This document shows, in pieces, positions 6,001 through 10,296 of a DNA stretch of 64,000 bases (positions within the stretch are counted from its first letter, which is position 1; the number at the start of each line of letters is the position of its first letter). A program made the position numbers. This DNA comes from Escherichia coli (GTDB lineage: Bacteria; Pseudomonadota; Gammaproteobacteria; Enterobacterales; Enterobacteriaceae). The stretch lies in the NCBI RefSeq assembly GCF_016026235.1, contig NZ_CP065613.1; one strand, written 5' to 3'.

Positions 6001-9000
6001 CCACTTGCGTTCAGTGCCGGGCTTCTCGGTATCGGACAGAACGGTCTGCTGGTTGTGCTCCCTGTTCTGGTCATACAGACAAATCTGAGTCTGTCTGTAT
6101 GGGCTGCCCTGCTGATGCTTGGCTCAATGCTGTTTCTGCCATCGTCCCCGTGGTGGGGAAAGCAAATTTCCCGTACTGGCAGTAAACCTGTGGTGTTGTG
6201 GGCTCTGGGAGGATATGGCATAAGCTTTACCCTGCTAGGGCTGGGAAGCGTGCTGATGGCTACCAGCGCCATAACAACAGCGGTGGGACTGGGAATATTA
6301 ATCATCGCCCGGATCGCCTACGGGCTGACCGTGTCGGCAATGGTGCCAGCCTGTCAGGTCTGGGCATTGCAGAGAGCTGGAGAAGGGAATCGCATGGCCG
6401 CTCTGGCAACCATCAGCTCCGGCCTGAGTTGCGGCAGGCTATTCGGGCCGCTGTGCGCGGCAGCAATGCTGGCCATTCATCCTCTGGCGCCACTGGGGCT
6501 ACTGATGGCAGCACCAGTGCTGGCGCTGCTGATGCTGCTGCGGTTGCCCGGCACACCACCACAGCCCACACCGGAGTGCAAGAGCGTCAGTCTGAAGCGG
6601 GATTGTCTGCCTTATCTGCTTTGCGCAATATTACTGGCTGCGGCGGTGAGCATGATGCAGCTTGGACTTTCGCCTGCCCTTACTCGCCAGTTCGTCACGG
6701 ATACCACCGCCATTAGCCAACAGGTGGCCTGGCTGTTGGGTCTGTCCGCAGTAGCTGCGCTTATCGCGCAGTTCGGGGTACTCCGTCCGCAGCGCCTGAC
6801 TCCGGTGGCCCTGCTCCTGAGTGCCGGAGTGTTGATGAGTGGTGGTCTGGCTATCATGCTCTCCGAACAGCTATGGTTGTTTTACCCGGGCTGTGCAGTG
6901 CTGTCATTTGGAGCAGCTCTGGCAACACCCGCTTATCAACTACTACTGAATGATAAGCTGGCTGATGGCGCAGGCGCGGGCTGGCTCGCTACCAGTCACA
7001 CACTTGGCTATGGACTGTGCGCTTTGCTGGTGCCGCTGGTATCGAAAACAGGTGTCGCAATCGCGCTGATTATGGCAGCATTATTTGCAACTATATTATT
7101 TACCATTGTGTCTGTATTTATCTGGCATTACCGTACTATCAAATAAAGATATGATCATCACCTTACTGGAGTAAATCAGAGGATATGAGAGAGGACCTGC
7201 GTCTGATGAAAGCATGTCAGGCAGTGTTCTGGCTTGCTGCCCCCGCCCATCAGGTATAGTGAATTCAACCAGTTGCTGCGGTGTAATCTCCATGATTCTT
7301 TCGTGCAACAACCTATGATCCCGTTTACCATTAATATTCAGCGTTGCTCTGTTATTAAATTTCATTCTGACAAGCCAGTCAGCTTTTATTCCGGGAGTCT
7401 GCTCTGCGCGTTCAAACAGGTCATAAAAATCGCCTTCACGATCAGAAATTGACAATACATGGGTATCAGGGCATTGGCGAGCCAGTTCTGTTGCTTTATT
7501 ATATCCTTCAACCCAACGCCAGGTTTCTTTTTCACTGACATGTTTTTTATGAAGTAAATCATTGCAGATTTCTTGTCGGGTATTTTTACTGGTTTTTAAT
7601 TCATCCCTGAACCACTGATAGTCATCATAAACACCGAGGCAAACACCTGACTCACTGATGACGAGTTGAGGATGAAGAAATAAGTTTCTTTCATCTTTAT
7701 GTTTTTTGTGACCAACTCCTTGTTTTTCTTTCTGACCAGAATAATTAAGTTCTGTTGTATCCTGTAAAACTAAAACTCTTTTAAACTGCTGAGCTCTTTC
7801 AGTGATATTTTCTTTGTGAGGAGCCATGAGGTAGCCTGAGTTTAACGGACACTCCTTCCTGAAATAGAATGGCATCAGAAGGAGCTAATAATGAGCAGAA
7901 AAAACCAACGTTACTCTAAAGAGTTCAAAGCCGAAGCTGTCAGAACGGTTCTTGAAAATCAACTTTCGATCAGTGAAGGCGCTTCCCGATTATCCCTTCC
8001 TGAAGGCACTTTAGGACAATGGGTTACCGCCGCCAGAAAAGGGCTCGGTACTCCTGGTTCCCGCACGGTGGCTGAACTGGAATCTGAAATTCTGCAACTG
8101 CGTAAGGCGTTAAATGAAGCTCGCCTTGAGCGAGATATATTAAAAAAGCAACAGCGTATTTTGCACAGGAGTCGCTGAAAAATACGCGTTAATCGAACAA
8201 TGGCGACAACAATTTCCCATTGAAGCGATGTGTCAGGTATTTGGTGTATCCAGGAGCGGTTATTACAACTGGGTACAGCATGAACCCTCAGACAGAAAAC
8301 AAAGTGATGAGCGGCTAAAACTGGAGATTAAGGTGGCACATATCCGCACTCGCGAAACATATGGAACCCGGCGGCTCCAGACGGAGCTGGCAGAGAATGG
8401 CATCATCGTTGGTCGTGACCGACTGGCACGTCTTCGTAAGGAGCTAAGGCTACGCTGTAAGCAGAAACGCAAGTTCAGAGCGACTACGAACCCGAACCAC
8501 AATCTGCCAGTTGCGCCAAATCTGCTGAACCAGACGTTCGCTCCTACAGCACCAAATCAGGTCTGGGTGGCGGACCTGACGTATGTTGCCACACAGGAGG
8601 GATGGTTGTACCTCGCTGGCATCAAAGATGTTTATACGTGCGAAATTGTCGGCTACGCCATGGGAGAGCGCATGACAAAAGAGCTGACAGGTAAAGCCCT
8701 GTTTATGGCGCTCAGGAGCCAGCGCCCACCTGCCGGGCTAATCCACCACTCTGATCGAGGTTCACAGTACTGCGCATACGATTACCGGGTCATACAGGAG
8801 CAGTCTGGTCTGAAAACATCAATGTCGCGTAAAGGTAACTGTTACGACAACGCTCCGATGGAAAGCTTCTGGGGAACGCTGAAAAATGAGAGCCTGAGCC
8901 ACTATCGTTTTAATAACCGGGATGAAGCCATCTCAGTAATACGGGAATACATTGAGATTTTCTACAATCGTCAGCGTCGTCACTCTCGTCTGGGGAATAT

Positions 9001-10296
9001 CTCCCCGGCAGCCTTCAGGGAAAAATATCATCAGATGGCTGCTTAAAAAAAGAACAAATGGTAGTGTCCGCTATTGCCAGTACACCTCACCATAATTTTA
9101 TTAGCAGAGACTTTATCGTTTGAAAAACAACGATAAGCTGCCTTTGTTTCACTCCAGGTACGGCAGGAAACAGGAATACTTTCTTCTGGTGAACGACTGA
9201 GGCTATTGAGGATATGTTTTACTCTTTTATCAAGTCTTGAGTCCCCTATATCCAGTGATTTTAGCTCCTGAATAACCCAGTTTTCCATAACACCTCTGAA
9301 ATAATCTCTGTCTTTTCAATATAATACTATTATTTCAACTTGTGGGTAAGGGTATGAGATGCGAAATGATGATCGATAGTGATGCGAATAAGTGTTCGAT
9401 TCAGATGCGATTATGCAATATGATTTTATGTGTGTTGCTTAATTATCATATTTCTTGCCCGTTCCCCGCCGCGCAGATCCGGTTTCCGGCTGAAGTGGAT
9501 ACAGACCTGATTTGTTTCTGAGTATCGGTAAAAGTGCGGCTTATAAGCTATTCTGAAACATGGCAAGTGAATCTGGGCGGTATAATTCCGGCAAATGTCA
9601 TCTGTATTTAAAGGACGTGTGAGTATGAAATTTCTGGAATGTGCTGTCCGGGATGTGATTTATGGGACCAATGTCCGTATTGTCAAACCGGTCAACATTT
9701 ATGAATGTGAACTCAGGGACAACGTGTTTGTCGGCCCTGAACCGCCCCGGGAATCCTGGAGACTAAACTTCCTGAGAAAGAGGTAAACAGGATGACTAAA
9801 AATACTCGTTTTTCCCCTGAAGTCCGTCAACGGGCAGTCCGTATGGTTCTGGAAAGTCAGGGCGAATATGACTCACAATGGGCGACAATTTGTTCCATTG
9901 CTCCAAAGATTGGCTGTACGCCGGAGACTCTGCGTGTCTGGGTTCGCCAGCATGAGCGGGATACCGGGGGCGGTGATGGAGGGCTCACCACCGCTGAACG
10001 TCAGCGTCTGAAAGAGCTGGAGCGTGAAAATCGTGAAATGCGCCGCAGTAACGATATCCTTCGCCAGGCTTCCGCTTATTTTGCGAAGGCGGAGTTCGAC
10101 CGCCTCTGGAAAAAATGATGCCACTGCTGGATAAGCTGCGTGAGCAGTACGGGGTCGGACCGCTATGCAGCGAACTGCATATTGCCCCGTCAACGTATTA
10201 CCACTGTCAGCAACAGCGACATCATCCGGATAAACGCAGTGCCCGTGCGCAGCGCGATGACTGGCTGAAGAAAGAGATACAGCGCGTATACGATGA

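What the first reader, a model, noticed from the sequence alone, without database searches (positions are those of the whole stretch)
7827..9089. IS600-like copy inserted into a Tn5-like transposase gene, with orfB in the +1 frame
The element is bounded by TGAGG...CCTCA ends with a CCA direct repeat on both sides, and it splits a Tn5/IS4-like transposase ORF (9090..9288 joins 7096..7826 in frame once the IS and one CCA are removed). Inside, the A_AAA_AAG slippery site is in the orfA frame, but a -1 slip meets a stop after 14 codons and the DDE-domain frame is +1 to orfA. The element is 1263 bp against the 1264 bp I recall for IS600, consistent with a single-base loss in the A-run that would block OrfAB fusion.
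Basis: partly seen in the sequence, partly recalled or inferred. Interest (0 to 1): 0.35.

Follow-up and report, generated by a model that had tools for sequence, protein, structure and literature searches.

The report
IS600 copy missing one A
This is an ordinary copy of the insertion sequence IS600, sitting inside a dead transposase gene next to the aerobactin operon, whose recorded sequence lacks one A in the frameshift run needed to make its transposase; the loss may be a real recent mutation or just an assembly error.

Summary
Window 7827..9089 is IS600, 1263 bp and 99.9% identical to 1264-bp copies. It is flanked by a CCA target duplication. An empty site with a single CCA exists in E. 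coli genomes, where the target is an intact 308-aa ORF, itself a truncated IS4/Tn5-family remnant.

The only length difference from canonical IS600 is A6 (8142-8147) instead of A7. Canonical IS600 shifts -1 on A_AAA_AAA at codon 86, giving OrfA of 100 aa and OrfAB of 385 aa. With A6:
- orfA ends early (95 aa);
- a -1 slip on the new A_AAA_AAG rebuilds the normal OrfA tail (14 codons, ATAYFAQESLKNTR);
- orfB lies at +1/-2, so the normal route to transposase is closed.

Four other assemblies with the same insertion all have A7. The closest one differs from the window by 0 substitutions in 19.3 kb. The window's three private differences are all 1-bp homopolymer losses inside IS transposase genes, and 21.5 kb of unique DNA shows none. 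So the A6 arose after insertion or is a consensus error; reads are needed to decide.

A6 alleles do exist elsewhere: several loci in S. boydii Sb227, and 5 of 1331 E. coli records. This is ordinary IS decay or artefact, of low interest.

The parts
7824..7826 (.). Left copy of the 3-bp target site duplication (CCA)
   Evidence: The empty site in L004/L006 has one CCA (GAGGAGCCATAATTTT). The window has CCA on each side of the IS.
7827..9089 (+). IS600 (IS3 family), 1263 bp, the only copy in the window
   Evidence: 99.9% identical over its full length to 1264-bp copies that PGAP annotates as IS3-like element IS600. Searches with the end sequence and with the run region each find one site.
7827..7855 (+). 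Left imperfect terminal inverted repeat (TGAGGTAGCC...)
   Evidence: 20 of the first 29 positions match the reverse complement of the right end.
9061..9089 (+). Right imperfect terminal inverted repeat (...ACACCTCA)
7891..8178 (+). orfA as written: 95 aa with the altered tail ...DILKKQQRILHRSR*. Canonical OrfA is 100 aa and ends ...DILKKATAYFAQESLKNTR*.
   Evidence: Pfam HTH_Tnp_1, E = 1.1e-20.
8142..8148 (+). A6 run plus G, read as the heptamer A_AAA_AAG in the orfA frame. Canonical IS600 has A7 (A_AAA_AAA) here.
   Evidence: Alignment. Sharma et al. 2014 supplement lists cluster A_AAA_AAA_1 as IS600, motif at codon 86, products of 100 and 385 aa.
8148..8192 (+). -1 frame segment ATAYFAQESLKNTR plus stop. 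This is the wild-type OrfA C-terminus, reachable here only by a -1 slip.
   Evidence: Frame translations of the window and of L001.
8150..8190 (+). Predicted hairpin downstream of the slippery run. The main stem is GCGUAUUUU (8154-8162) paired with AAAAUACGC (8179-8187). It is a candidate frameshift stimulator.
   Evidence: Minimum free energy -13.1 kcal/mol, z = -2.64 against shuffles; also seen. Sharma et al. state that IS600 frameshifting is stimulated by a stem-loop, citing unpublished data.
8144..9046 (+). orfB reading frame (first ATG at 8228, 272 aa, DDE/integrase core). It is +1 (= -2) relative to orfA in this copy.
   Evidence: Pfam rve, E = 1.1e-25, and HTH_21. The conceptual OrfAB fusion scores 413.8 bits on NF033516 transpos_IS3.
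9090..9092 (.). Right copy of the 3-bp target site duplication (CCA)
9093..9288 (-). N-terminal part of the interrupted IS4/Tn5-family remnant (Tnp_DNA_bind domain)
   Evidence: PF14706, E = 5e-20 on the restored protein. The restored ORF is intact in L004/L006.
7096..7826 (-). C-terminal part of the interrupted IS4/Tn5-family remnant. Its 3' end overlaps the MFS (shiF-like) gene at 5953..7146.
   Evidence: The restored 308-aa protein matches only positions 1-206 of the 405-position model NF033590, at 143 bits against a cut-off of 160.

Best explanation
The feature is one copy of IS600 (IS3 family). It transposed, with a 3-bp CCA duplication, into an already truncated IS4/Tn5-family transposase remnant that lies between the shiF-like MFS gene of the aerobactin locus and another IS.

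Its recorded sequence differs from the same insertion in other strains only by one missing A in the slippery run (A6 instead of A7). Canonical IS600 makes its transposase OrfAB (385 aa) by programmed -1 ribosomal frameshifting on A_AAA_AAA at codon 86, helped by a downstream hairpin.

With A6, three things follow:
- The zero frame gives a 95-aa OrfA with a foreign 9-residue tail.
- A -1 slip on the newly formed A_AAA_AAG gives back the normal 100-aa OrfA.
- orfB is reachable only by a net -2/+1 event. That could be a rare -2 or +1 ribosomal slip, or a one-A loss or two-A gain in the mRNA.

So, as written, this copy should make little or no transposase. Its ends are intact, so it could move only with transposase supplied by A7 copies.

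The loss arose after the insertion and is private to this assembly. I judge an uncorrected homopolymer under-call in repeated DNA slightly more likely (about 55%) than a real recent deletion or a gene conversion from an A6 copy (about 45%).

Shown: identity, insertion site, frames, and the private, derived state. Inferred: loss of OrfAB production, and the split between artefact and real.
For: Identity and single indel in the run. Target duplication and empty site. Frames of the A6 and A7 copies.

Canonical site, products and 'proven' -1 frameshifting with a stem-loop for IS600: Sharma et al. 2014, PMC4066793, main text and supplementary tables. Hairpin.

Same insertion with A7 in L017/L027, L024/L028, L025 and L026, with the IS otherwise identical.

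Window against L028 over 19.3 kb: 0 substitutions and four 1-bp homopolymer indels. Three are losses private to the window (8141 in IS600; 13733 and 13898 in ISEc49 tnpC), and L027 agrees with L028 at all three. Window against L041 over 21.5 kb of unique DNA: 3 substitutions, one 16-bp indel, no 1-bp indel.

A7 is the rule elsewhere. Only 5 records have an exact A6 match, out of 1331 with a full-length match in complete E. coli genomes. In a sample not chosen by run length, 7 of 7 copies were A7.
Against: No reads are available, so the true run length in this genome is unknown. No expression or transposition data exist for A6 copies.

A6 copies with their own target duplications sit at several loci in S. 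boydii genomes. That is hard to reconcile with a completely immobile allele, unless they were mobilised in trans, converted, or mutated independently.

PGAP annotates 1263-bp copies as 'programmed frameshift' all the same, but this follows from the family model and is not evidence.
Confidence: 0.85

Rival explanations
1. Assembly artefact. The genome really has A7 at this copy. The A6 is a homopolymer under-call that polishing or finishing did not correct because the site lies in repeated IS DNA.
For: All four orthologous insertions are A7. The window's branch carries 0 substitutions but three 1-bp homopolymer losses in 19.3 kb, all inside IS transposase genes, whereas 21.5 kb of unique sequence has none. 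The C3/C3 ISEc49 allele is found in none of 204 other records.

A6 calls also cluster within particular assemblies: 3-4 loci each in GCA_949812105.1 and GCA_974490245.1. They differ between sister assemblies that carry many split genes: L020 is A6 while L019 and L022 are A7 at one locus.

From general knowledge: residual errors of long-read or hybrid assemblies concentrate in homopolymers within repeats.
Against: The assembly is otherwise clean. ISEc49 is single-copy in the window and in most E. coli genomes, so the 'repeat' argument is weaker for two of the three losses. The same N5+A6 allele is real elsewhere (L010 = L014).
Confidence: 0.5
2. Real, recent change in this strain. Either replication slippage (A7 to A6) occurred after insertion, or a short gene-conversion tract was copied from one of the A6 IS600 copies in the same genome. 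The result is a defective, non-autonomous copy.
For: A7 runs are known hot spots for indels; Sharma et al. note that AAAAAAA is avoided in genes, possibly for that reason among others.

A6 alleles occur on three sequence backgrounds: N5 with 8837A, N5 with 8837C, and T5. This implies recurrent change or recombination.

The exact N5+A6 OrfA is on 122 contigs, including at least 4 loci of Sanger-sequenced S. boydii Sb227. One of these loci has the same A6 and the same private SNP in an independent assembly (L010/L014).
Against: Three private homopolymer deletions with zero substitutions against the nearest relative is a very unlikely outcome of ordinary mutation. The copy shares 8837A with its A7 orthologues, whereas most sampled A6 copies have 8837C, so any conversion tract would have to be short.
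Confidence: 0.4
3. Functional A6 allele. A6 is a heritable state of IS600 that still yields some OrfAB. The route could be a -2 slip on A_AAA_AAG, which would give a protein identical to the canonical OrfAB, or one-A transcript slippage. The run would then act as a reversible A6/A7 throttle on transposition.
For: A6 copies with their own 3-bp duplications are at 9 or more distinct loci in six Shigella assemblies. Copies with the identical A6 haplotype lie at different loci (L007 and L015).

The deletion shortens the spacer to the hairpin by 1 nt. The Atkins et al. 2016 review (PMC5009743) notes that -2 frameshifting exists, and that shortening the spacer raised the -2:-1 ratio in an HIV cassette.
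Against: There is no direct evidence. The loci were selected for A6, so the sample is biased. A7 copies coexist in the same genomes (CP026866: L009 is A6, L018 is A7), so supply in trans, independent deletions or gene conversion explain the pattern without any new mechanism. A6 is very rare in E. coli. Some multi-locus A6 genomes may reflect systematic sequencing error.
Confidence: 0.1

Closest known systems
IS600 (IS3 family, IS3 group; 1264 bp), as in Shigella pINV plasmids and many E. coli
   Same: 99.9% nucleotide identity over the full length. Same ends, same 3-bp target duplication, same orfA and orfB, same downstream hairpin.
   Different: One A fewer in the slippery run. OrfA is 95 aa instead of 100 aa, and orfB is at +1/-2 instead of -1.
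IS911 / IS3 programmed -1 frameshifting (A_AAA_AAG plus a downstream structure giving OrfAB)
   Same: The logic of two overlapping ORFs, a lysine-codon heptamer and a 3' hairpin. The heptamer as written here is the IS911-type A_AAA_AAG.
   Different: In IS911 the -1 slip leads into orfB. Here it leads only to the 14-codon normal OrfA tail and a stop.
IS600 A6 allele already in public records (e.g. 'IS600 ORF1', 95 aa, S. boydii Sb227 ABB65069.1; E. coli O145:H28 RM12581/RM13514; S. sonnei p1519721_1)
   Same: Identical 95-aa OrfA (P0004) and the same A6 run.
   Different: Those copies are at other loci. At this locus the other assemblies have A7.
'Savior indel' with low-level compensatory frameshifting (herpesvirus thymidine kinase G-run), as reviewed by Atkins et al. 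2016
   Same: A 1-bp indel in a homopolymer that could be partly compensated by slippage.
   Different: This is an analogy only. No compensation has been shown for IS600.

Membership tests
IS600 / IS3 family | Near-identity of the whole element to IS600 | tested here: met
   99.9% over 1263/1264 bp to copies that PGAP annotates as IS600. The ISfinder reference itself is not available in the tools.
IS600 / IS3 family | Imperfect terminal inverted repeats ending 5'-TG...CA-3' | tested here: met
   TGAGGT...ACCTCA; 20 of 29 positions match.
IS600 / IS3 family | 3-bp direct target duplication, with a matching empty site elsewhere | tested here: met
   CCA on both sides here; a single CCA in L004/L006.
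IS600 / IS3 family | orfA with a helix-turn-helix domain and orfB with a DDE (rve) catalytic core | tested here: met
   HTH_Tnp_1, E = 1.1e-20; rve, E = 1.1e-25. The conceptual fusion scores 413.8 bits on NF033516 against a cut-off of 160.
IS600 / IS3 family | orfB in the -1 frame of orfA, with a slippery heptamer in the overlap (A_AAA_AAA at codon 86 for IS600) | tested here: not met
   orfB is +1 and the run is A6. This single deviation is the finding itself. It marks a mutated or mis-called copy, not a different element.
IS600 / IS3 family | Production of OrfAB and transposition activity | not testable with these tools
   Needs a reporter or transposition assay.
IS4/Tn5-family transposase (the interrupted target gene) | N-terminal Tn5-type DNA-binding domain | tested here: met
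   PF14706, E = 5e-20; NF049926, 54 bits against a cut-off of 27.
IS4/Tn5-family transposase (the interrupted target gene) | Complete DDE catalytic domain (full-length transposase) | tested here: not met
   The restored 308-aa ORF covers only positions 1-206 of 405 of NF033590 and scores 143 bits against a cut-off of 160. It is a truncated remnant, even where it is uninterrupted.

The most novel reading that the evidence does not exclude
The A6 form of IS600 might not be dead. It could be a low-activity allele that has spread to many loci in S. boydii. It would make OrfAB by a -2 ribosomal slip on A_AAA_AAG (same protein as the canonical one) or by one-A transcript slippage. Replication slippage between A6 and A7 would then act as a reversible switch on transposition rate.
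Probability: 0.08. Interest if true: 0.5.

Novelty: already known. Interest (0 to 1): 0.15.

Why it matters
It matters little beyond annotation. If the A6 is real, this copy should be recorded as a non-autonomous IS600. The 95-aa OrfA and the automatic 'programmed frameshift' label that PGAP gives to 1263-bp copies would then be misleading.

If it is an artefact, it is a useful flag that this assembly carries uncorrected homopolymer under-calls in IS elements (there are also two in ISEc49).

The wider pattern could deserve a small experimental test. A6 copies occur at several loci in S. boydii but are almost absent from E. coli. The test would ask whether run length tunes IS600 activity during the IS expansion in Shigella.

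Tried and rejected
1. My first guess was that the missing base lay in the second A-run (8178-8182), because the -1 frame carries the conserved KKATAYFAQES motif. The alignment rejected this: that run is A5 in all copies, and the motif belongs to OrfA, as in IS911.

2. Rfam scan for a known frameshift element in IS600: none found. The only hit is the ALIL pseudoknot of the neighbouring IS at 10073..10189.

3. Attempts to identify the source assembly by exact look-up of window-specific ORFs all failed. The 259-aa chimeric ORF, the 1091-aa ORF, and the 372-aa ISEc49 fragment are not on record, and the 237-aa OrfB form gave only unrelated loci. The sequencing technology therefore remains unknown.

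4. Identity bands from the short-query BLAST were not usable as counts because partial matches inflate the >=99% band. I used the ranked full-length exact matches instead.

5. Literature search for IS600 plus frameshift found no paper discussing the A6 allele.

6. Testing whether ISEc49 is repeated, which would explain errors in repeats: it is single-copy in the window and in the fetched loci. Its genome-wide copy number is unknown.
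Full report
**What is there**

Window 7827..9089 (+) is a 1263-bp element starting TGAGGTAGCC and ending ACACCTCA, with CCA on both sides. It matches thousands of places in complete E. coli genomes and in Shigella and E. coli plasmids at 99.6-99.9% identity. Those places are annotated 'IS3-like element IS600 family transposase', and nearly all of the best ones are 1264 bp long. It is the only copy in the window.

Aligning it with two 1264-bp copies (pCFSAN029787_01 and pWR501) shows one indel only. 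The run after GATATATT is A6 here (8142-8147) and A7 there. The second A-run (8178-8182) is A5 in all copies.

**Insertion site**

E. coli genomes that carry the same aerobactin neighbourhood (iucA, the shiF-like MFS gene, and an 'IS4/Tn5 family transposase DNA-binding protein') have an uninterrupted 927-bp ORF, WP_001387604.1. At the insertion point they read GAGGAGCCATAATTTT, with a single CCA. Removing the IS and one CCA from the window restores a 308-aa ORF that differs from that protein by one residue.

The target is not a full Tn5-like transposase. It has the Tnp_DNA_bind domain but covers only positions 1-206 of 405 of the IS4 model, and scores below that model's cut-off. It was already a remnant before IS600 arrived.

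**Frames**

In A7 copies orfA reads ...DILKKATAYFAQESLKNTR* (100 aa), and orfB is open in the -1 frame from the run onward. This agrees with Sharma et al. 2014 (PMC4066793). Their supplementary tables list cluster A_AAA_AAA_1 as IS3 family / IS3 group / IS600, with the motif at codon 86, a zero-frame product of 100 aa and a frameshift product of 385 aa. Their text calls it a proven case of -1 frameshifting stimulated by a stem-loop, citing unpublished data.

In the window the three frames read as follows:
- The zero frame reads TTA AAA AAG CAA..., giving ...DILKKQQRILHRSR* (95 aa).
- The -1 frame gives ATAYFAQESLKNTR*, which is exactly the normal OrfA tail.
- orfB (open from 8144, ATG at 8228, 272 aa, rve domain) is +1/-2.

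A hairpin is predicted just after the heptamer: 8154-8162 pairs with 8179-8187, at -13.1 kcal/mol and z = -2.64. The deletion brings it one base closer to the heptamer.

The consequences are inferred, not tested. A -1 slip, probably efficient on A_AAA_AAG, only regenerates normal OrfA. OrfAB needs a -2 or +1 ribosomal slip, or an mRNA with one A fewer or two more. A -2 slip would give a protein identical to canonical OrfAB.

**Is the A6 real in this genome?**

The same insertion, with the same junctions, is present in four other assemblies: GCA_031665325.1, GCA_900449985.1, GCA_050054195.1 and GCA_002466675.1. All have A7. The two long-contig copies are otherwise identical to the window's copy. 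The loss therefore postdates the insertion and is private to this assembly.

Over 19.3 kb the window and GCA_900449985.1 show 0 substitutions and four 1-bp homopolymer indels:

| Window position | Window | Relative | Location | Third assembly sides with |
|---|---|---|---|---|
| 8141 | A6 | A7 | IS600 | the relative |
| 13733 | C3 | C4 | ISEc49 tnpC | the relative |
| 13898 | C3 | C4 | ISEc49 tnpC | the relative |
| 14736 | T5 | T6 | ISEc49 | the window |

Over another 21.5 kb of unique sequence (the T2SS / sslE region) the window differs from GCA_031665325.1 by 3 substitutions and one 16-bp indel, with no 1-bp indel. The C3/C3 ISEc49 allele occurs in none of 204 other records.

Three private homopolymer losses, no substitutions, and all three inside IS transposase genes is not what ordinary mutation produces. 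It is what uncorrected consensus errors in repeats or in unpolished IS genes look like. That reading rests on general knowledge of assembly errors, not on a test.

Against that, the assembly is otherwise clean, and the A6 allele is genuine elsewhere. I cannot settle this without reads. I put artefact at roughly 50-55%, and a real deletion or gene conversion at 40-45%.

**The A6 allele in public data**

Exact look-up of the four OrfA variants gave these counts:

| OrfA variant | Length | Contigs |
|---|---|---|
| A6, T5 background | 95 aa | 184 |
| A6, N5 background (the window's exact OrfA) | 95 aa | 122 |

The N5+A6 form is annotated 'IS600 ORF1' in S. boydii Sb227. There it occurs at 4 or more loci of a Sanger-sequenced genome that has 20 IS600 copies in all (Hawkey et al. 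2020, S1 Table). One of these loci shows the same A6 and the same private SNP in an independent assembly (L010 = L014).

Several A6 copies have their own 3-bp duplications. A6 occurs on at least three sequence backgrounds, which implies recurrent change or recombination.

In complete E. coli genomes A6 is rare. Only 5 records give an exact full-length match to an 86-nt A6 probe, among 1331 records with a full-length match. A7 is the exact match in the rest. In a sample of copies not selected by run length, 7 of 7 were A7.

Some A6 calls are suspect:
- They cluster at 3-4 loci in certain recent assemblies.
- They differ between sister assemblies that are full of split genes (L020 against L019 and L022).

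PGAP labels 1263-bp copies 'programmed frameshift' regardless. That label reflects the family model only.

**Verdict**

The element is IS600. The deviation is a one-base loss in its slippery run that closes the canonical route to transposase.

Whether real or an artefact, this is an ordinary event for a multi-copy IS, and the allele is already in public records, although I found no paper that discusses it.

The only reading with some novelty cannot be excluded but has no direct support. It is that A6 is a throttled yet still mobile state using -2 or transcript slippage, which would explain its spread in S. boydii.

Noticed in passing
window 13733 and 13898 (ISEc49 / IS66-like tnpC, minus strand, ORFs 13753..14871 and 13272..13733): Two 1-bp losses in C-runs (C3 against C4) break the IS66-family transposase. 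It is intact (533 aa) at the same locus in GCA_031665325.1. None of 204 other records has this allele.
   Followed up: partly
window 14736: A T-run is T5 in the window and in GCA_031665325.1 but T6 in GCA_900449985.1, where the tnpC call shortens to 492 aa. This is probably an error or mutation in that other assembly.
   Followed up: partly
window 3811 (iucB, minus strand, ORF 3157..3810): An 11-bp deletion relative to GCA_031665325.1 is shared with GCA_900449985.1. It splits iucB, which is 315 aa when intact, so aerobactin synthesis may be defective in this lineage.
   Followed up: partly
window 9737..11043: An IS3-family element with an ALIL pseudoknot (Rfam RF01497, 120 bits, 10073..10189) lies next to the IS600. 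Its orfB appears shortened (222-aa ORF at 10333..11001), so this copy may also be degraded.
   Followed up: no
window 46693 (sslE/yghJ-like gene, ORF 46279..50856, minus strand): There is a 16-bp indel relative to GCA_031665325.1. The window keeps a 1525-aa ORF, while no gene is called there in the other assembly.
   Followed up: no
L018, L021, L023 (CP026866, CP026797, CP026867) against window 7827: In these genomes homology to the window stops exactly at the IS600 left junction, and an IS66-family element follows instead. This suggests a rearrangement or deletion at the IS600 end in related strains.
   Followed up: no
L019, L020, L022, positions about 5736..6999: Three assemblies from one project carry IS600 at the same locus, with A7, A6 and A7 respectively. 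All three have many split genes. This shows that run-length calls at this site are unreliable in some assemblies.
   Followed up: partly
window 8120..8134: A small hairpin (CUCGC-CUUGA-GCGAG) ends 7 nt upstream of the A-run. Hairpins placed like this can promote transcript slippage in some IS elements (my recollection, not checked). It is not stable in the 141-nt fold.
   Followed up: no
L060 (CP026765.1), gene at 2558..2986: An IS600 copy there has a 142-aa orfA call despite an A7 run, so it must carry a different change downstream.
   Followed up: no
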